The position numbers were made by a program, and so were the translations under genes. Of a stretch of DNA of 51,819 nt, positions 4,410-49,743 are shown in pieces. How positions within the stretch are numbered: position 1 is the stretch's first letter; every line of letters begins with the position of its first letter. The stretch is taken from NCBI GenBank assembly GCA_020279385.1, contig GCA_020279385.1_4133.1; one strand, 5' to 3'. Source of the stretch: a phage. The notes under the pieces are model-generated. The model was not told where the DNA came from. It did not search any database and worked only from the letters and a program-made list of their open reading frames with translations.

Positions 4410-4690
4410 TATGCGATACCAGTTACGTTAAAACTTACAGCCTTTGTTGCGCTAAATACATAAGCATCAACAGCGCCGCCAAATACACGAATTTTACCCT
4501 GGCCGTACTGCGCATTCATATTTCGCCAAACCGTTCTATTAGAGCAGAATGCGCTACCAGTCTTAATAAGCGTATCCATCTCTTTTCTTAGATCGCGATA
4601 GTCCAGCCAGAATCTAAAGGCACGCTGTTTAATTCGCGCCGCCTTGATTTTTTCTCTTGCGCTATTGAAATCATTCTTTTCGTATGCCAT
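4409..4690 (-). CDS. Hypothetical protein (93 aa)
   Basis: ORF with GGAG RBS. Confidence 0.5.
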   Translation of the reverse strand: MAYEKNDFNSAREKIKAARIKQRAFRFWLDYRDLRKEMDTLIKTGSAFCSNRTVWRNMNAQYGQGKIRVFGGAVDAYVFSATKAVSFNVTGIA

Positions 4691-4887
4691 TAAATGATCT
4701 CCATGTATGTTTCAAAGCCATTTAACTTGAACAGGTCGTTTTCACATTTGCGCACGTTCCAAGTTAGCCCTGAGTGGTACGCATCCATATCATCAAGGTC
4801 AATGGTGATTTCAGCACCTTTCTTAAACAAACCTTTTTCGTGAGACTTGTCGCGCTTAACAACTTTAACATCAACCTGATTTTCCAT
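4690..4887 (-). CDS. Hypothetical protein (65 aa)
   Basis: Track ORF begins at GTG 4938; internal ATG at 4887 has GAGGAT RBS. Confidence 0.5.
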   Translation of the reverse strand: MENQVDVKVVKRDKSHEKGLFKKGAEITIDLDDMDAYHSGLTWNVRKCENDLFKLNGFETYMEII

Positions 4888-4942
4888 CTTTAAATCCTCG
4901 CTTGTTGTCGATGGGTGTAATATACCATTCAGGCGCACATCG

Positions 4943-5226: not shown

Positions 5227-5452
5227 GGTTATTACTCCTTATCGTAAAGATTTAAAGACGTATAGTTTATTGCGGTAACTATATATCCGCATTGTTATTT
5301 CTCGCAGTGCAATATATTCCTTCCTGTTTTCCGGAAGACTGGCGAGCAACAACAGGCAGTATTTATAAGCGCGGTCAAGATTTCTTTCCGTGCCCCTGCA
5401 ATATCCCTTGTTGCGCCTGGAACGGTACAGCCATAACAATTTCTTGAACATT

Positions 5453-5662
5453 TCAGATACGCCCATACAGATCACAGACTTCGTTGATAAAATTGCTTTG
5501 CGCCCCTTTGTTGTCACGCTCAAGAATTGCGCGGCATTCAAACTTATGATTATGCACGATGACTACAACCATGTTTTCAGGCATTGAGCGGTTATAGCGT
5601 TGCGCATCAGTGATTAAAACATCCATACCCATCTCATGTGCTTTCTTGATCACATCCAACAT
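5453..5662 (-). CDS. Hypothetical protein (69 aa), paralog of 5650-5916
   Basis: ATG at 5662 with AGGAG RBS; C-terminal NFINEVCDL matches ADFINDVCLL of the neighbour. Confidence 0.5.
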   Translation of the reverse strand: MLDVIKKAHEMGMDVLITDAQRYNRSMPENMVVVIVHNHKFECRAILERDNKGAQSNFINEVCDLYGRI

Positions 5663-5916
5663 TTTTTCTTCTCCTGCAATAAGCAAACATCATTGATAAA
5701 ATCAGCACGGCCCTTAATGTTGCTGATGTGGAGCGTCTTTTCAGCGTACAGGCCATCACCTTCAATCACGATCATTACGCGAGTCGGTTTATTCACGGGC
5801 GCACACGAAAAGAGTGGGCGCGCCGGAAGAAATTTAGTAGCCACATCCAGGTTAGCCCTGGCGGCCCTGCAAAATGCCTCCGCCAGATCCAAATCATTTT
5901 CGGTAATCACCGCCAT
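5650..5916 (-). CDS. Hypothetical protein (88 aa), paralog of 5453-5662
   Basis: ATG with GAGGAG RBS; shared VxIEGD...FINDVC pattern. Confidence 0.5.
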   Translation of the reverse strand: MAVITENDLDLAEAFCRAARANLDVATKFLPARPLFSCAPVNKPTRVMIVIEGDGLYAEKTLHISNIKGRADFINDVCLLQEKKKCWM

Positions 5917-6188
5917 TACTTCTTGATCTCCTCACTGATAAATTTCAGCACCTGACGCAAGAAAACCTCGTTGTTGATAGTCGCTGGCAATTCTTCCTTC
6001 ACTTCTTGCGGCAGATAGATATTGCCGTGCCAGGTCAAGCAATCGTAGTTGATACGATAAGAGCAAAGCCACTCGCAATCGTTATCTGCTTCCCAAATGC
6101 AGAGTTGCAGAACATCGCCAAAATCTTCAACAGTCAGATCCAGACCGTGACGCTTAGCGAAGTTGAAAGTGGTTTTGCTGATGTTCAT
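5916..6188 (-). CDS. Hypothetical protein (90 aa), first gene of the leftward block
   Basis: ATG with AGGAG RBS. Confidence 0.55.
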   Translation of the reverse strand: MNISKTTFNFAKRHGLDLTVEDFGDVLQLCIWEADNDCEWLCSYRINYDCLTWHGNIYLPQEVKEELPATINNEVFLRQVLKFISEEIKK

Positions 6189-6247
6189 TTACTATCTCCT
6201 GAGCGGTTCGTTTTGATGTGTGTAATGTACCCGATCAGACGGCCTGA

Positions 6248-6269
6248 GTTTTAACAAAAAGTGCTATTT
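6248..6269 (-). promoter_or_regulatory. Conserved intergenic element copy upstream of the leftward block
   Basis: gttttaacaaaaagtgctattt on plus strand, about 60 nt from the 6188 start. Confidence 0.5.
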
Positions 6270-6298
6270 GACGGTTAGCGCCAGGATTGCGATCTAAA

Positions 6299-6390
6299 TA
6301 ATCAAAAGTAATCATTCGTAATCAAATCACGTCAAAATGATGATTGCCTTTGCAAATTTGATGAGAAAAGTAATCACGTTTAATCATTGG
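6299..6390. repeat. Iteron-like direct repeats of (G)TAATCA at about 10-bp spacing
   Basis: TAATCA at about 6299, 6309, 6319, 6371, 6381 plus inverted tgatgattg at about 6338. Confidence 0.5.
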
Positions 6391-6560
6391 TTGCAGGGGA
6401 GATAGTGAAACCTTCCCCTCTTTCCTCACTTTTCCGCCCGGCTGTCAGTGGTTGTTGTCTTTTGTTCACCCCTGTTACCGATTTCAGGCGGCGTGTTTCC
6501 GCGCGGTTTTCCGGTGTAGCGAAAACGGAAAAAACAAAAAAAATCCTATATAATACATTG

Positions 6561-6750
6561 AAAATAAAGATTATTTATTTATATATATCTATAATGTTTT
6601 CTTTTTGTTCTCACTGTTACAGTGCTTTTTTTTGGGTGTGGTGTGGTTGTGTGTTGGTATATATGGATAGTTGCGCGCGCGGCGGATTGCATATGTATAT
6701 ATACTTTTTCCGGCGGATTGCGTTAACAGCGTGAACAGAAAAATAACAGC
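6561..6750. repeat. AT/GT-rich non-coding element A, homologous to 36796-36974
   Basis: Shared blocks ttatttatttat, GT-rich tgggtgtggtgtggttgtg, catatgtatatata..ccggcgg, gaacagaaaaataaca. Confidence 0.6.
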
Positions 6751-6822
6751 CCTGAAATCAACAACTTGCGCATGATTTTGTAGTTTTTCGATATTGGTAA
6801 CGTTTTGAATACAACAAAAACA

Positions 6823-6850
6823 TTGACACGCACCAAATAGCTTTTATAAT
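6823..6850 (+). promoter_or_regulatory. Consensus sigma70-type promoter for the rightward early block
   Basis: TTGACA, 16-nt spacer, TATAAT, followed by GGAGGAAAGG RBS and ATG 6882. Confidence 0.65.
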
Positions 6851-6881
6851 GCGCCAACAGTCAACAACTGGAGGAAAGGAA

Positions 6882-7346
6882 ATGGAACAGAAGACCACTA
6901 AGGACTATTGCGATTGGCTTCGCGAGCTTGGTCGCCGCCTGGCTAGTGGCGATATTGAAGAGTATAAAATGTCACTAATTGACCTGGCCGGAATGTTAAG
7001 CGGTGACGACTGCTACAAGATCACGCGCAGTTCATCCTACAGCCGGACCATTATCAACCGCGTTCCAGAAGTAAGGGCCGCAGGTCGGGTAAGCATCAAG
7101 GTAGAGGAAACGGAAGATGATAAATTTTACGTTTTCCGCATGGTCCGCGAATCGAAAAGGAAAATCATCACACCCGAAGAATTGCCAGCCATCAAGGCAA
7201 GGGCGATCAAAAAGTTTGCCGATCGCTTACTGGCAGCAATCCCGAATATCGTTGACCTGGAAGGGGATAAACTGGCTGGGGCTTGCGAGGGCGTAAGCCG
7301 CTACCAGGATATGATCCGCGAAATCATCAAAGAGGAGGAGCAATAA
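6882..7346 (+). CDS. Hypothetical early protein (154 aa)
   Basis: Internal ATG with GGAGGAAAGG RBS; the upstream track ATG overlaps the -10 hexamer. Confidence 0.6.
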   Translation: MEQKTTKDYCDWLRELGRRLASGDIEEYKMSLIDLAGMLSGDDCYKITRSSSYSRTIINRVPEVRAAGRVSIKVEETEDDKFYVFRMVRESKRKIITPEELPAIKARAIKKFADRLLAAIPNIVDLEGDKLAGACEGVSRYQDMIREIIKEEEQ

Positions 7347-15210: not shown

Positions 15211-15738
15211 ATGGCTAAAAATGTTGAGCCTGCTGTAAAGGCATTAAATTTCAAAGAGTTATACAATAAAACTTATGGAGATATTGTTACACTAAACAAC
15301 CGCCACAAGTACACGCCGGAACAGGTTTTTGATATGGCGATCCGCTATTTCACTTGGGCCGAAGAGAATCACATCCAGGCGACTGAAACTGCTTCCTTTC
15401 AGGGTGACGTGTACGAGAGCAGAGTTTACAAGCCTCGCGTTTTCACGGTTAACGGATTCAGCTTGTATCTCGGCGTGACTGAGGCCGCCGTAAGCAAATG
15501 GCGTAAAGAGCCTGGATTCTGCGATGTGATGGAGTTTGTTGATAAGGTAATTTACGAGCAAAAATTCCAGCTTGCGGCAAACAACATGATTAACGCTGGA
15601 TTCATCGGTAAAGAGATCGGAGTAGAGAAGCCAGCGACAGTGAGCGTTGAAGCGAGCGCGGCAGCTAATGCAAGCATTGACGCAGTAACTGCCGATGAGG
15701 TGAAAGAGGCTGTGATTGATATTCTGGAGCAACTTTAA
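15211..15738 (+). CDS. terS: Terminase small subunit (putative)
   Basis: Internal ATG with AAGGAGG RBS; immediately precedes and overlaps terminase large subunit; HTH-like segment. Confidence 0.55.
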   Translation: MAKNVEPAVKALNFKELYNKTYGDIVTLNNRHKYTPEQVFDMAIRYFTWAEENHIQATETASFQGDVYESRVYKPRVFTVNGFSLYLGVTEAAVSKWRKEPGFCDVMEFVDKVIYEQKFQLAANNMINAGFIGKEIGVEKPATVSVEASAAANASIDAVTADEVKEAVIDILEQL

Positions 15739-17306
15739 TGATCATATGGGAAGATTTGACGGCGGCGCAAAAGCGAGCCATTAAAGAAATCAGTGAGCAT
15801 TCATTCGAAAAGATGATCAGAATCTGGTTCCAATTATTGCAGGGGCAAAAATTCCAGAGCAACTGGCATTTTAGCTTATTGTGCAGTGAGGTAGAGAAGA
15901 TCATCAATGGAGAGTCGCAGAATGTGATTTTCAACATTACGCCAGGTAGCGGCAAGACTGAGATTTTCTCGATCCACATGTCACCCTACGCGTCATTGAA
16001 AAGCCGGAAAGTGAGAAACCTTAACCTTTCGTTTAGTGATGGCCTTGTCCAGCAAAACAGCAACCGGATAAAGGAGATTATCGGTTCTCCTGAGTGGCAA
16101 GAGCTATGGCCTGGAAAACTGGCAAAGGCGAGCGCTAAAGATCTGATAGTCACCGAAGGCGGCAAGGTTAAATTGCAAGTTAACTCACGTTCTATTGGCG
16201 GCCAGGTAACAGGTTTGCGTGGCGGATATATGGATGATGGTTTTACTGGTATGCTGGTTCTTGACGATCCAGACAAGCCGGATGATATGCTTTCTAAGGT
16301 CAAGCGCGAGGCTATTCACATGCGATTAAAAAACACAGTGCGATCGCGTCGAATGAAAGACACCACGCCAATTGTTATGGTGCAACAGCGACTACACGTT
16401 AATGATTCCACCTGGTTCATGCTTAATGGCGGGATGGGTGGTATTGAGTTTAAAGTCGTTAGCATTCCGGCGCTGGTTACGAAAGAATACCGCGAAACGC
16501 TTCCTGATTGGTTGAAGCCTGAATTTGATCGTGATGTTCTGTCAAGTAAGCCAGTGATGATAGATGGCGTTGCTCATTATTCATTTTGGCCTGCGAAGGA
16601 AAGCGCGGAGGAGTTGCTTGCATTGCGCAATGCAGATCCTTACACGTTCGCCAGCCAATACCAACAGCAACCAATCGCGCTGGGCGGGAACGTGTTTAAA
16701 ACAGAGTGGTTCCAGTATTACGGCAGCGGCGAAAAATGCGCGCTTCCTAAACCGGATCGCTTTGAATACACATTTATTACTGGAGATACCGCGCAGAAGG
16801 CCGGAGAGCTTAACGACTATTCGGTTTTTTGTTATTGGGGGATGTATAAGAATCGCGTTTACTTCATTGATGGCATTCGCGGAAAGTGGGAAGCGCCGGA
16901 TCTTGAATTAAATTTTATTGCCTTCGTTAACCAGTGCTGGAAGCGCAATAAGGAGTGTGGCAGCTTGCGACGTATCCACATTGAGGATAAGGCCAGCGGC
17001 ACGGGTTTGATTCAGGGGGCCAAAAAGAAGATCCCGATTGATATAAATCCCGTTCAGCGAAACAATGACAAGGTGACGCGAGCAATGGACGCCGCGCCAG
17101 TAATGAGGGCCGGACGTGTGGCACTGCCAGAAAATCACCCCATGCTGCCTGAGATACTGGCAGAGGTTGCAGCATTCACTTTTGATGATTCTCATCCCCA
17201 TGATGATATTGTCGATAATATAGTTGATGCTGTTAACGTCGAAATGAACTTGGCAGATGATCCGGTGGCAAGGATGAAAAAGCTGGCTGGTCTACGCAAT
17301 AAATAG
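15738..17306 (+). CDS. terL: Terminase large subunit
   Basis: 522 aa; Walker A-like PGSGKT; position between small subunit and portal. Confidence 0.8.
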   Translation: MIIWEDLTAAQKRAIKEISEHSFEKMIRIWFQLLQGQKFQSNWHFSLLCSEVEKIINGESQNVIFNITPGSGKTEIFSIHMSPYASLKSRKVRNLNLSFSDGLVQQNSNRIKEIIGSPEWQELWPGKLAKASAKDLIVTEGGKVKLQVNSRSIGGQVTGLRGGYMDDGFTGMLVLDDPDKPDDMLSKVKREAIHMRLKNTVRSRRMKDTTPIVMVQQRLHVNDSTWFMLNGGMGGIEFKVVSIPALVTKEYRETLPDWLKPEFDRDVLSSKPVMIDGVAHYSFWPAKESAEELLALRNADPYTFASQYQQQPIALGGNVFKTEWFQYYGSGEKCALPKPDRFEYTFITGDTAQKAGELNDYSVFCYWGMYKNRVYFIDGIRGKWEAPDLELNFIAFVNQCWKRNKECGSLRRIHIEDKASGTGLIQGAKKKIPIDINPVQRNNDKVTRAMDAAPVMRAGRVALPENHPMLPEILAEVAAFTFDDSHPHDDIVDNIVDAVNVEMNLADDPVARMKKLAGLRNK

Positions 17307-36795: not shown

Positions 36796-36974
36796 TAAAA
36801 TCAATAGTTTATTTATTTATGTATGTATATTTGTTTTTTCTTGTTATCTGTGTTTCTTGTGGTTTTGGTTGTTTGTGGTGATTTTTCTTTCTGAGTATCT
36901 GCATGTGCCATCATTCATGTGTATGTATATAATCCGGCGTATCTTAGAGAACAAGGGAACAAGAAAAATAACAC
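36796..36974. repeat. AT/GT-rich non-coding element B, homologous to 6561-6750
   Basis: tttatttatttatgtatgtat, tgtggttttggttgtttgtggtg, catgtgtatgtatataatccggcg, gaacaagaaaaataaca. Confidence 0.6.
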
Positions 36975-43515: not shown

Positions 43516-43992
43516 TTAGCTATTTGTGCTGTTATCACCTTTGTAGAATCGTCCGCCTGGTTCGTAGTCTGAATTTTTGACTACGCGCAACATCTCGTAT
43601 TTGTCGCAACGGGTAGTAAGAGGCTTACCGTTAGAATCAAACCGCAGATCTGGACGACAAAATGATGCGCGGTATCCTTTGCATCCATTATATTTGTAGT
43701 CGTTATGCACCTTTTGTGCTCCAGCGGCTGAAATCATACCACGCTTTCGCCATTGGTTAACGACTTGCTGAGATACGCGTAGACGTCGAGCCATAGCAGG
43801 AACACCGCCATAATACTCGATCAGAATATCCAAGCGAGATTTCAGGCTTGCTTTTACCTCATCTCGCAGGATAAGAAATCCGGTTCGGTGTTTTCGTGGC
43901 TTTTTGTCTTTACCTCGTCGCGTTCCGTTGTTACCGTTAATAGTGCGCTTGTCGATCTCACCCGTAGACACCGCAATTCGTGCATCTTTCAT
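43516..43992 (-). CDS. HTH DNA-binding protein
   Basis: Helix-turn-helix GGVPAMARRLRVSQQVVNQWRKRG; basic N-terminus; GAGGTGA RBS. Confidence 0.5.
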   Translation of the reverse strand: MKDARIAVSTGEIDKRTINGNNGTRRGKDKKPRKHRTGFLILRDEVKASLKSRLDILIEYYGGVPAMARRLRVSQQVVNQWRKRGMISAAGAQKVHNDYKYNGCKGYRASFCRPDLRFDSNGKPLTTRCDKYEMLRVVKNSDYEPGGRFYKGDNSTNS

Positions 43993-48627: not shown

Positions 48628-49743
48628 ATGAAAAATGTAAAAATTACAGATGAGCAATTCAAGATCGAACGGGCGGCGGGTAAGACATATAAACAGATCG
48701 CTCAAGAGTACGGAATGAATGTTAGAAGCGTCGAGCGTCGCGCGGCGCGTCTTGCAAAGCAAGGCCAGGTATCCACCATTGGAGCGCCTGGTTTTGGAGT
48801 TCATGGTGAGTCAGTAATGACTGACAAAGAAGGCAACATAATCCTAAAGTGGACTAAAACCAGCAAGGATAAAGAGCAATTAGAAGCATTAATGCGCGCA
48901 GCAATGGAGGCATTTAGCGAGGAAGTGCCGCGATTAGATCCGGTCCCATTACAGGAGCGCGACTATAACGAAACGCTTTCTTTGTATCCGATCTTTGACA
49001 TGCACTTAGGCGCTATGGCCCATAAGCACGAATGCGGCGAAAATTGGGATACTGCCACGGCAGAGCGCGTTATGAATAACTTTATCGACTATGCTTTAAT
49101 GTGCGCACCGGATAGCGAAAAGGCTGTCATCCTGATTGGTGGCGATATGCTGCATAGCGACGGCCTGGAGGCGGTTACACCTGCAAGCGGTCACGTACTG
49201 GATCAAGATAGTCGATATGCAAAATTGGTTTACGTTGCCATCCGTGCAATGCGACGCGCAATCAATAAAATGTTGTTAAAGCATAAACATGTTGAAGTCC
49301 AGATCGTAGAGGGAAATCATGACCAATCAGGAATGATTTGGCTACGCGCAGCGATGGCGGCAGCATATGAGAACGAGCCGCGCGTTTACGTTGATGTTTC
49401 TCCTCGCGTTGTTCACCACACGCAATACGGAAAAACTTTCCTTGCGTACCATCACGGGCACACAGTGCGTAAACCTGAGACTTTGCTAATGATGTGCGCG
49501 TCAGATTGGCGGGAGGACTTCGGAAACTCAAAAACGATGTATGCGCACGTAGGGCACTGGCATCACCAGACCGTAACAGAAACGTCGCTTGGCATCGTGG
49601 AGGTGCATAGCACCCTGGCGGCAAAAGACGCATACGCCGCGCGAGGTGGCTGGAGATCTCGACGCCGTGCGGCGGTTATCATTTACGACAAAGAGCATGG
49701 AGAAGTCGGGCGATTTGTTCACTATCCAGAAATGATGAATTGA
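48628..49743 (+). CDS. Metallophosphoesterase (calcineurin-like) with N-terminal HTH
   Basis: Motifs DMHLG, GGDMLHSDG, GNHD, HHGH, GHWHH; N-terminal HTH KTYKQIAQEYGMNVRSVERRAARL. Confidence 0.6.
   Translation: MKNVKITDEQFKIERAAGKTYKQIAQEYGMNVRSVERRAARLAKQGQVSTIGAPGFGVHGESVMTDKEGNIILKWTKTSKDKEQLEALMRAAMEAFSEEVPRLDPVPLQERDYNETLSLYPIFDMHLGAMAHKHECGENWDTATAERVMNNFIDYALMCAPDSEKAVILIGGDMLHSDGLEAVTPASGHVLDQDSRYAKLVYVAIRAMRRAINKMLLKHKHVEVQIVEGNHDQSGMIWLRAAMAAAYENEPRVYVDVSPRVVHHTQYGKTFLAYHHGHTVRKPETLLMMCASDWREDFGNSKTMYAHVGHWHHQTVTETSLGIVEVHSTLAAKDAYAARGGWRSRRRAAVIIYDKEHGEVGRFVHYPEMMN

What the first reader, a model, noticed from the sequence alone, without database searches (positions are those of the whole stretch)
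6299..6390. Iteron-like TAATCA repeats with helical periodicity in the leader of the leftward early operon
Five direct copies of (G)TAATCA are spaced at about 10 bp (about 6299, 6309, 6319, then 6371, 6381) with an inverted copy between. This is the arrangement expected for an operator or an origin iteron array. The HTH protein (43516-43992) or the unknown early proteins are candidate binders.
Basis: seen in the sequence. Interest (0 to 1): 0.45.

Follow-up and report, generated by a model that had tools for sequence, protein, structure and literature searches.

The report
Phased TAATCA repeats beside phage packaging site
Five evenly phased copies of TAATCA are really there. They lie in a T1-like coliphage between an early promoter and the place where DNA packaging most likely starts, so they are probably a protein docking site for packaging and/or early-gene control, not an mRNA leader or a classic replication iteron array.

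Summary
TAATCA occurs on the + strand at 6299, 6309, 6319, 6371 and 6381, with an imperfect inverted copy (TGATTG, 6341-6346). This is the strongest non-trivial hexamer cluster in the window, and simulations almost never reproduce it.

The window is a Warwickvirus (T1-like, Drexlerviridae). The array is not in a leader: it lies about 80-170 bp upstream of the leftward operon's promoter, in the 660-bp divergent early control region.

That region holds the packaging start (pac) in T1-like phages. T1's annotated terminal-repeat start, a PhageTerm peak in phage MSK, and the record ends of XY3 and PHB17 all map to about 6347-6420, beside or inside the array.

TGATT/AATCA is the most enriched pentamer in this segment across seven lineages. 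Each lineage has a copy 5-25 nt left of a conserved G-rich element. The distal triple is lineage-specific; T1, Hanrivervirus and WaterSpirit carry TATTCCA/TGGAATA there.

Best reading (about 0.4): a pacL-like docking array for small terminase that may also shut off the adjacent promoter. Rivals are a promoter operator, origin iterons, or no specific function. No binder was identified.

Side finding: the phage's 21-nt promoter repeat matches the MarA/SoxS/Rob marbox.

The parts
6299..6324 (+). Distal triple: TAATCA at 6299, 6309 and 6319 (10-bp spacing), followed by the partial copy AAATCA at 6324-6329.
   Evidence: Specific to the 61 Warwickvirus records. Replaced by TATTCCA/TGGAATA repeats in T1, Hanrivervirus and WaterSpirit.
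6341..6355 (+). Central segment: the inverted imperfect copy TGATTG (6341-6346) overlapping the quasi-palindrome TTGCCTTTGCAA (6344-6355). It resembles the family-wide unit TGATTGTTGCA...TGCAA.
   Evidence: T1 RefSeq coordinate 1 (GTGATT|GTTGCATGGTGTGCAAC) maps here, both by motif and by distance from the promoter 20-mer (about 6347-6352).
6371..6386 (+). Proximal pair: TAATCA at 6371 and 6381, in helical phase with the distal triple.
   Evidence: All seven lineages compared have a TGATT/AATCA copy about 5-25 nt left of the G-rich element (positions, sequences).
6396..6418 (+). Conserved G-rich element GGGGAGATA|GTGAAACCTTCCCC. It can form a 5-bp stem. It is the inferred site or neighbourhood of the first packaging cut (6404|6405).
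   Evidence: XY3 (98% identical to the window here) and PHB17 (a different genus) both open at the homologous GTGAAACC. The haarsle record breaks 9 nt to the left. The motif is conserved across lineages.
6453..6478 (+). TGTTGT, TGTTCA and TGTTAC at 6453, 6463 and 6473 (10-bp spacing), on the side that would be packaged. Candidate right-hand (pacR-like) site.
   Evidence: repeat D2. Related TGTTAT/TGTTC repeats occupy the same place in Hanrivervirus, WaterSpirit, L152 and L154. Function inferred only.
6224..6267 (-). Leftward promoter module: the 20-mer ATAGCACTTTTTGTTAAAAC (6267..6248), an 18-nt spacer, and the -10-like TACATT (6229..6224). It places the array upstream of the promoter, not in a leader.
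   Evidence: The window holds 14 copies, all pointing the same way as the genes, with a fixed 18-nt (17 in one) distance to a -10-like hexamer. The repeat is published for phage TLS with function unknown (PMC11447400). It matches the marbox consensus.
15211..15738 (+). Small terminase (TerS, P22 gp3 family). Candidate binder.
   Evidence: Pfam PF16677, E = 3.8e-11. 61 phage records carry TerS at >=95% identity and the next best is <=80%. The same number of records, 61, carry the array.
43516..43992 (-). Cro/YdaS-like HTH protein.
   Evidence: Weak Pfam hits just below threshold. The recognition helix is nearly invariant across lineages with different distal repeats.

Best explanation
The TAATCA array is the left-hand recognition half ('pacL-like') of the packaging-initiation (pac) region of this T1-like phage.

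**Proposed mechanism (inferred).**
1. A ring of small-terminase (TerS) subunits docks on hexamers that all face the same side of the helix, over about 90 bp.
2. The ring holds or wraps this DNA.
3. This presents the adjacent conserved G-rich element (cut at about 6404|6405) to the large terminase for the first cut.
4. Headful packaging then runs rightward.
5. Because the array abuts the leftward early promoter, occupancy late in infection would probably also shut that promoter off, as reported for SPP1.

**Shown here.**
- The repeats are real, phased and unique in the genome.
- They lie next to positions used or measured as genome ends in relatives.
- The core motif is enriched at this place across the family.

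**Inferred only.**
- That TerS is the binder.
- That the DNA wraps around it.
- That binding represses the promoter.
For: **Position.** Five lines of evidence place the pac region beside or inside the array.
- T1's RefSeq record starts, with its annotated 2800-bp terminal repeat, inside the homologous intergenic region, 162 bp from the leftward gene. This maps to window about 6347-6352.
- A published PhageTerm peak in phage MSK (position 36,862, PMC8421802) lies 149 nt beyond its promoter 20-mer, which corresponds to window about 6416.
- The XY3 and PHB17 records open at exactly the homologous GTGAAACC, window 6405.
- The haarsle record breaks 9 nt to the left.
- The SU57 paper states that pac lies in this untranslated region in T1-like phages.

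**Architecture.**
- The array is single-copy.
- All copies lie on one helical face over 8 turns.
- A second 10-bp-phased repeat (TGTT x3) lies on the other side of the inferred cut.

**Family-wide signal.**
- TGATT/AATCA is the most enriched pentamer in the promoter-to-G-run segment of seven lineages: 26 observed against 5.1 expected, with at least 2 copies in each.
- Each lineage has a copy 5-25 nt left of the G-rich element.
- This segment is the top TGATT/AATCA cluster genome-wide in the window, atuna and T1.

**TerS.**
- It falls into discrete types: 61 records at >=95% identity, none between 80 and 95%. The count equals the 61 records that carry the array.
- Between the window and WaterSpirit, TerS is 64% identical while the adjacent TerL is 91%, and the repeats also differ.

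**Precedent.** In SPP1/SF6, pac has direct repeats (boxes A, B, C), TerS binds on both sides of the cut, and neighbouring HTH motifs on the TerS ring sit one helical turn apart. [quoted passage not shown]
Against: - **No binding data.** Nothing here shows that any protein binds the array.
- **The TerS tree does not follow the distal repeat type.** T1, Hanrivervirus and WaterSpirit share TATTCCA/TGGAATA, yet their TerS proteins are only 54-68% identical to each other. Hanrivervirus TerS is closest to the window's (74%).
- **The 61 = 61 match is confounded.** All these records belong to one genus, and only the counts were compared, not the lists.
- **The end evidence is indirect.** Three record ends may reflect laboratory convention rather than measured termini, and the T1-based and MSK-based estimates differ by about 60 bp.
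- **The TerS family fits poorly.** P22, the founding member of the gp3 family, uses a single asymmetric 22-bp pac site. Its HTH-like motif is reported to be occluded (PMC4737164).
- **No sign of intrinsic bending.** AA-dinucleotide periodicity is not significant.
- **Weaker signal in two lineages.** In Hanrivervirus and WaterSpirit this segment is not the genome's top TGATT cluster.
Confidence: 0.4

Rival explanations
1. The array is an upstream operator or enhancer for the leftward early promoter, and possibly for the whole divergent control region. A phage or host regulator would bind the phased hexamers at about -80 to -170 and repress or activate the promoter at 6267..6224. Packaging would not be involved.
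For: - The array lies directly upstream of the promoter module.
- In T1 and WaterSpirit the replacement repeat (TATTCCA) overlaps the outer end of the promoter 20-mer. In Hanrivervirus four half-sites form a 38-bp palindrome 13 bp from it, as operators often do.
- The TATTCCA/TGGAATA motif is kept between subfamilies (T1 and Hanrivervirus) with different spacing, independently of TerS type. This points to a non-TerS binder.
- T1 has a second leftward-facing 20-mer that is also followed by GATTA/TGATT repeats.
- The array is single-copy.
Against: - No co-varying DNA-binding gene was found. The 70-aa ORF at 5239-5451 is missing from three phages that keep the array. The first rightward gene is 29% identical in atuna, which keeps the array. 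gp39 is present in both array types.
- No DNA-binding domain was detected in the neighbouring early proteins.
- The recognition helix of the only annotated regulator barely varies between array types.
- The copies that are positionally conserved across lineages keep their distance to the G-rich element, not to the promoter.
Confidence: 0.28
2. The repeats are origin iterons. An initiator would oligomerise on them and open the AT-rich stretch about 150 bp to the right (6540-6600).
For: - Direct repeats in helical phase are typical of origins.
- The same intergenic region contains a very AT-rich block and further repeats.
- The origin of T1-like phages is unknown (TLS paper).
Against: - The conserved unit is only 6-7 bp, whereas plasmid and lambda iterons are about 17-22 bp.
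- No initiator-like gene was recognised nearby or elsewhere. The replication genes found are a primase, helicases, SSB and recombinases.
- The AT-rich block is separated from the array by the G-rich element and GC-rich repeats.
- Packaging ends map here, which explains the position without invoking an origin.
Confidence: 0.08
3. The array has no sequence-specific function. On this view it is a recent local duplication or slippage product, or generic AT-rich upstream DNA, kept by descent within one genus.
For: - All 61 records with the array are 95-99% identical over it, so there is too little divergence to show selection.
- Among 6 distinct sequences, 1 of 12 variable positions falls in the 30 hexamer bases against 2.4 expected, which is not significant.
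- One lineage (atuna) has CAATCA in copy 4.
Against: - The cluster is very improbable by composition.
- The phase is kept across the 52-bp gap.
- The same core pentamer is enriched at the same place in distant lineages whose non-coding DNA is otherwise unalignable.
- The array stays 95-99% identical even in the atuna group, where the right half of the intergenic region and the next gene have been replaced.
Confidence: 0.12

Closest known systems
SPP1/SF6 pac region (pacL boxes A and B, pacC, pacR box C), bound by a ring-shaped small terminase
   Same: - Short direct repeats lie on both sides of a defined first cut.
- The footprint is about 100 bp.
- Binding units sit one helical turn apart.
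- The region overlaps an early promoter, so that TerS binding can switch from transcription to packaging (PMC4737164, PMC4856287).
   Different: - SPP1 pac lies at the TerS gene. Here it is about 8.8 kb upstream of TerS, in a divergent early control region.
- The TerS here belongs to the P22 gp3 family, not the SPP1 G1P family.
- SF6 TerS shows little sequence specificity, whereas here a sequence motif is conserved.
- Intrinsic bending is documented for pacL but was not detected here.
Phage P1 pac site (from memory: TGATCA/G hexamers, four on one side and three on the other of a central cleavage zone)
   Same: - Hexamer repeats form two clusters that flank a central zone.
- If T1's coordinate 1 is the true cut, it falls between the 3-copy and 2-copy clusters.
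- The hexamers are similar (TGATCA against TGATTA).
   Different: - The P1 hexamers contain GATC, and Dam methylation controls cleavage. TAATCA has no GATC.
- The XY3, PHB17 and MSK evidence puts the cut to the right of both clusters, not between them.
- The P1 details are recalled from memory and were not checked in a paper.
P22 pac site (a single 22-bp sequence GAAGATTTATCTGAAGTCGTTA inside gene 3), recognised by gp3-family TerS
   Same: - The TerS family is the same (Pfam PF16677; 30% identity to P22 gp3).
- Packaging is by the headful mechanism.
- A GATT core is present in both.
   Different: - P22 has a single asymmetric site within the TerS gene.
- Here there are five phased hexamers in an intergenic region far from TerS.
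Operator arrays of phage early control regions and plasmid or lambda origin iterons
   Same: Multiple phased copies of a short motif in a divergent early control region.
   Different: - The copies do not overlap the -35/-10 elements.
- No cognate repressor or initiator gene lies nearby.
- The conserved unit is 6-7 bp, not 17-22 bp.

Membership tests
pac-site recognition repeats (SPP1 pacL / P1 pac type) | Lies at or next to the physical end made by the first packaging cut | tested here: inconclusive
   Four indirect lines point to 6347-6420: T1 coordinate 1 with its terminal repeat, the MSK PhageTerm peak, the XY3 and PHB17 record ends at the homologous GTGAAACC, and the haarsle break. No reads or end mapping exist for this phage itself, and the estimates differ by about 60 bp.
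pac-site recognition repeats (SPP1 pacL / P1 pac type) | Short repeats in helical phase, present once per genome | tested here: met
   Five copies with coherence 0.99 at 10.25 bp. The paired pattern occurs exactly only here.
pac-site recognition repeats (SPP1 pacL / P1 pac type) | Co-varies with the small terminase | tested here: inconclusive
   61 records carry the array and 61 carry TerS at >=95%. WaterSpirit differs in both. However, the distal repeat type shared by T1, Hanrivervirus and WaterSpirit goes with TerS proteins only 54-68% identical to each other.
pac-site recognition repeats (SPP1 pacL / P1 pac type) | Bound by small terminase and required for the first cut or for transduction of a plasmid that carries it | not testable with these tools
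   Needs EMSA or footprinting and a plasmid-transduction assay.
Replication-origin iterons | Direct repeats of about 17-22 bp beside an AT-rich unwinding element | tested here: not met
   Only 6-7 bp per 10-bp unit is conserved. The AT-rich block (6540-6600) is about 150 bp away, beyond the G-rich element and GC-rich repeats.
Replication-origin iterons | A cognate initiator gene encoded nearby | tested here: not met
   No initiator-like or DNA-binding domain was found in the flanking early proteins. The annotated relative lists only a primase, helicases, SSB and recombinases.
Promoter operator (lambda OR/OL type) | Sites overlap the -35/-10 or the transcription start | tested here: not met
   The array lies at about -82 to -169 from the inferred start. 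No sigma-70-like promoter lies within it on either strand.
Promoter operator (lambda OR/OL type) | A cognate repressor that changes together with the operator type | tested here: not met
   Candidates were rejected. The HTH recognition helix is nearly the same in both array types.
mRNA leader or structured RNA element | Transcribed 5' of the first gene, or matches a known RNA family | tested here: not met
   The promoter module lies between the array and the gene. Rfam gave only chance-level hits.

The most novel reading that the evidence does not exclude
The TAATCA/TGATT repeats are the sequence-specific recognition element of the T1-family pac site, which has never been defined at the nucleotide level. 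Small terminase bound there would also act as the late switch that turns off the leftward early operon. The lineage-specific distal repeats (TAATCA against TATTCCA/TGGAATA) would then be interchangeable specificity modules, much as immunity regions are, but for packaging and early control.
Probability: 0.25. Interest if true: 0.6.

Novelty: new member of a known kind. Interest (0 to 1): 0.5.

Why it matters
T1 is a classic phage, a generalized transducer and a notorious laboratory contaminant. Its pac site has only been placed by restriction mapping, and the one sequence proposal for a relative (TLS) rests on a 6-base resemblance to P22.

A defined motif, a conserved cut element and a clear set of mutations to make would render pac recognition in Drexlerviridae directly testable. 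They would also help in setting genome ends correctly in the hundreds of deposited T1-like genomes.

Tried and rejected
**Candidate binders**
1. The type-specific basic 70-aa ORF (5239-5451) looked promising. It is present in 58 array-bearing records and absent from WaterSpirit, pSf-1 and T1. It was rejected because PeterMerian, Kalemo and EC167 keep the array without it. It also has no family hit.
2. The first rightward gene (DUF7174, 6881-7346) was rejected. It is 29% identical in atuna, which keeps the array.
3. pSf-1 gp27/gp28 and gp39 were considered as binders of the TATTCCA type. gp27/28 have no T1 homologue at E <= 1e-3, and gp39 is also present in FritzSarasin, which has the TAATCA type.
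4. The TerS HTH-like segment differs in every lineage. It does not split along the TAATCA/TATTCCA divide.

**Other explanations of the sequence**
5. A-tract curvature: AA periodicity near 10-10.8 bp is not significant in any of the seven lineages.
6. Known RNA families: only chance-level Rfam hits.
7. A host or prophage copy of the array: no BLAST match in 5,426 complete E. coli genomes.
8. Sigma-70 promoters inside the array: none at a threshold of 9 or 10 matches out of 12 on either strand.
9. Host regulators with 10-bp direct repeats (for example CpxR, GTAAA-N5-GTAAA, against GTAAT-N5-GTAAT here) were considered from memory only and not tested.

**Searches that gave nothing useful**
10. A scan of IMG/VR for TAATCA-N4-TAATCA-N4-TAATCA returned mostly unrelated tandem repeats in giant viruses and other contigs.
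11. Substitutions within the 6 distinct array sequences are too few to test for selection.
12. The original T1 genome paper is not in the library, so how T1's coordinate 1 was determined could not be checked.

Full report
**What the window is.** The region is 98-99% identical to Escherichia phages JLBYU19, Poky and FritzSarasin. These belong to genus Warwickvirus, subfamily Tempevirinae, family Drexlerviridae, the T1-like phages. The finding lies in a 660-bp non-coding stretch (6189-6848). To its left is an operon of small genes transcribed leftward, whose first gene is 5916..6188 on the - strand. To its right is an operon transcribed rightward from the only perfect sigma-70 consensus promoter in the genome, TTGACA-16-TATAAT at 6823-6850.

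**Check of the observation.** TAATCA is on the + strand at 6299, 6309, 6319, 6371 and 6381. There is an extra AAATCA at 6324-6329 and an imperfect inverted copy, TGATTG, at 6341-6346.
- Apart from a TGATGA trinucleotide run in a coding region, this is the largest same-strand hexamer cluster in the window.
- None of 200 genome-sized Markov simulations produced five copies of any hexamer in 90 bp. One of 2000 simulations with the local composition did.
- TAATCA-N4-TAATCA occurs exactly only here.
- The five copies are in phase at 10.25 bp, with coherence 0.99.

**The array is not in a leader.** A search for the conserved sequence next to the array showed that GTTTTAACAAAAAGTGCTAT occurs 14 times in the window with at most 3 mismatches, against 0 expected.
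- Read in the direction of the local genes, it is ATAGCACTTTTTGTTAAAAC.
- It usually begins at the stop codon of the preceding gene.
- It is followed after 18 nt (17 in one copy) by a -10-like hexamer such as CATAAT, TATAAT or TACATT.
- This is the 21-nt intergenic repeat published for phage TLS and noted there for T1 and Rtp. Its function was stated to be unknown (PMC11447400).
- One copy (6267..6248, with -10 at 6229..6224) lies between the array and the first leftward gene.

The array is therefore about 82-169 bp upstream of the inferred transcription start.

**Relatives.** In 61 phage records the 128-bp array segment is 95-99% identical. This includes the atuna group, in which the right half of the intergenic region and the next gene have been replaced. 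Other lineages carry different short repeats at the same place.
- T1, Hanrivervirus (pSf-1, egaa, haarsle) and WaterSpirit have two or three TATTCCA followed by two TGGAATA/GGAATAA. In Hanrivervirus these form a 38-bp palindrome of four half-sites 10 bp apart.
- MSK (Rtp-like) has four TTGC-N7-GCAA units. Other lineages have two or three.

Under this variety there is a common core.
- TGATT/AATCA is the most enriched pentamer in the segment between the promoter 20-mer and a conserved G-rich element. Across seven lineages the count is 26 against 5.1 expected, with at least two copies in each.
- From the positions, each lineage has a copy about 5-25 nt left of the G-rich element.
- The segment is the top TGATT/AATCA cluster genome-wide in the window, atuna and T1, but not in pSf-1 or WaterSpirit.

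The array is therefore composite. The proximal pair (6371, 6381) corresponds to a family-wide element. The distal triple is a Warwickvirus-specific module.

**The packaging site.**
- The T1 RefSeq record begins, with an annotated 2800-bp terminal repeat, inside the homologous intergenic region, 162 bp from the leftward gene. By motif (GTGATT|GTTGCA...TGCAAC against ATGATT|GCCTTTGCAA) and by distance from the 20-mer, this is window about 6347-6352, in the gap between the two TAATCA clusters.
- For phage MSK, a published PhageTerm analysis gives a forward packaging start at 36,862 (PMC8421802). That is 149 nt beyond its 20-mer, equivalent to window about 6416.
- The GenBank records of XY3 (98% identical to the window here) and PHB17 (genus Changchunvirus) both open at the homologous GTGAAACC within GGGGAnnnn|GTGAAACC, which is window 6404|6405.
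- The haarsle record breaks 9 nt further left.
- The SU57 paper states that pac lies in this untranslated region in T1 and T1-like phages.

These lines are indirect, and record ends may follow laboratory convention. All of them nevertheless place the first cut within about 60 bp of the right end of the array. On the packaged side, TGTTGT, TGTTCA and TGTTAC follow at 6453, 6463 and 6473. Related TGTT repeats occupy the same place in other lineages.

**Who binds?**

*TerS (15211-15738).*
- It is a P22 gp3-family protein.
- It falls into discrete types: 61 records at >=95% identity, none between 80 and 95%. This count matches the 61 array-bearing records.
- Between the window and WaterSpirit, TerS is 64% identical while the adjacent TerL is 91%.
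- However, the TerS tree does not follow the distal repeat type, and the 61 = 61 match is what common descent within a genus would give.

*The Cro/YdaS-like HTH protein (43516-43992).* Its recognition helix is almost invariant across array types. This fits a conserved target, perhaps the TGATT core or something else, rather than the type-specific repeats.

*Neighbouring early proteins.* They show no DNA-binding domain. Three apparent co-varying genes failed on closer inspection.

**Mechanism.** The best-supported model is a pacL-like docking array.
- In SPP1/SF6, direct repeats flank the cut.
- A TerS ring with DNA-binding motifs one helical turn apart protects about 100 bp.
- Binding also competes with RNA polymerase at an early promoter (PMC4737164 and PMC4856287).

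The window shows the same geometry: five hexamers on one face over eight turns, a conserved cut element, a second phased repeat on the far side, and an abutting early promoter.

Points against the model:
- There are no binding data.
- The TerS family is that of P22, which uses a single 22-bp site.
- No intrinsic-bend signal was found.
- The TATTCCA module is shared across TerS types.

A pure promoter-operator role is the main rival. Origin iterons and no specific function are less likely. I give the pac reading 0.40, the operator 0.28, no specific function 0.12 and origin iterons 0.08, with the remainder unassigned.

**Side finding.** The 20-mer ATAGCACTTTTTGTTAAAAC fits the MarA/SoxS/Rob marbox consensus AYnGCACnnWnnRYYAAAY (PMC3709825).
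- It matches every specified position except, in most copies, the last.
- With at most one mismatch, the consensus hits 18 times in the window against 1.1 expected.
- Its centre lies at about -40 from the inferred start and it reads in the direction of transcription. This is the published definition of a class II marbox promoter (PMC12052159).
- No paper in the library links the marbox with T1-like phages.
- It suggests that most T1-family promoters depend on host Rob, MarA or SoxS, or on a phage mimic. That would answer a question the TLS authors list as open.

**Verdict.** The feature is real, statistically strong and undescribed in the papers searched. It is best filed as a new member of the class of phased protein-binding repeats at phage packaging and early-control regions. 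Its binder is unknown, and the experiments needed to find it are straightforward.

Noticed in passing
window, 14 copies: 1581, 2254, 4943, 6248 (+ strand coordinates, leftward genes); 7603, 8066, 9058, 10472, 13085, 44004, 46493, 47564 (rightward genes); 21927, 51287. More turn up with the degenerate consensus (11791, 17303, 31807, 36668).: The phage's promoter-associated 20/21-nt repeat ATAGCACTTTTTGTTAAAAC was published for TLS, T1 and Rtp with function unknown. It matches the E. coli MarA/SoxS/Rob marbox consensus AYnGCACnnWnnRYYAAAY: 18 hits with at most 1 mismatch against 1.1 expected. It lies a fixed 18 nt (17 in one copy) upstream of a -10-like hexamer with no -35 element, which is the geometry of a class II marbox promoter. 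This suggests T1-like transcription depends on host Rob, MarA or SoxS, or on a phage mimic. No paper in the library makes this link.
   Followed up: partly
window 6823-6850 (+): The only 12/12 sigma-70 consensus promoter in the genome (TTGACA-16-TATAAT). It drives the rightward early operon. The leftward operon has no equivalent.
   Followed up: partly
window 6453-6478, 6595-6620 (+), 6724-6748 (inverted); AT-rich block 6540-6600: A roughly 25-nt element, TGTT.TCTTTTTGTTCAC.CTGTTA, occurs three times around a very AT-rich block. One copy contains TGTTCACC, which from memory is the octamer bound by the phage P4 alpha primase-helicase, and the phage's primase is annotated in T1 as P4-alpha-like. 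This could mark the unknown replication origin or the right-hand pac half. Untested.
   Followed up: no
window 6680-6690 and 6711-6721: An exact 11-nt direct repeat, CGGCGGATTGC, 31 bp apart. It brackets ATATGTATATATAC and follows a GCGCGCGCG run.
   Followed up: no
window 4690-4938 (-): A small early protein matches Pfam PF25180, 'phage antiviral trigger protein Gp54' (E = 7.6e-38).
   Followed up: no
window 5239-5662 (-): FritzSarasin annotates a single 140-aa CDS here. The window has two ORFs in different frames joined by TGAAATG: 69 aa at 5662..5453 and a very basic 70 aa at 5451..5239. The second is missing from PeterMerian, Kalemo and EC167.
   Followed up: partly
L140 (T1 NC_005833) 48700-48836 and 1-330: T1 has a second leftward-facing copy of the 20-mer to the right of its G-rich hairpin. 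No -10-like hexamer lies at the usual distance. It is followed by further GATTA/TGATT repeats, and three CGATTAACA repeats lie upstream of the rightward promoter.
   Followed up: no
window 15211-15738 and 15738-17306: TerS is far more diverged than the adjacent TerL between Warwickvirus and its nearest relatives: 64-74% against 91-93%. No records have intermediate TerS identity (80-95%). This suggests TerS is exchanged or evolves as a separate module.
   Followed up: partly
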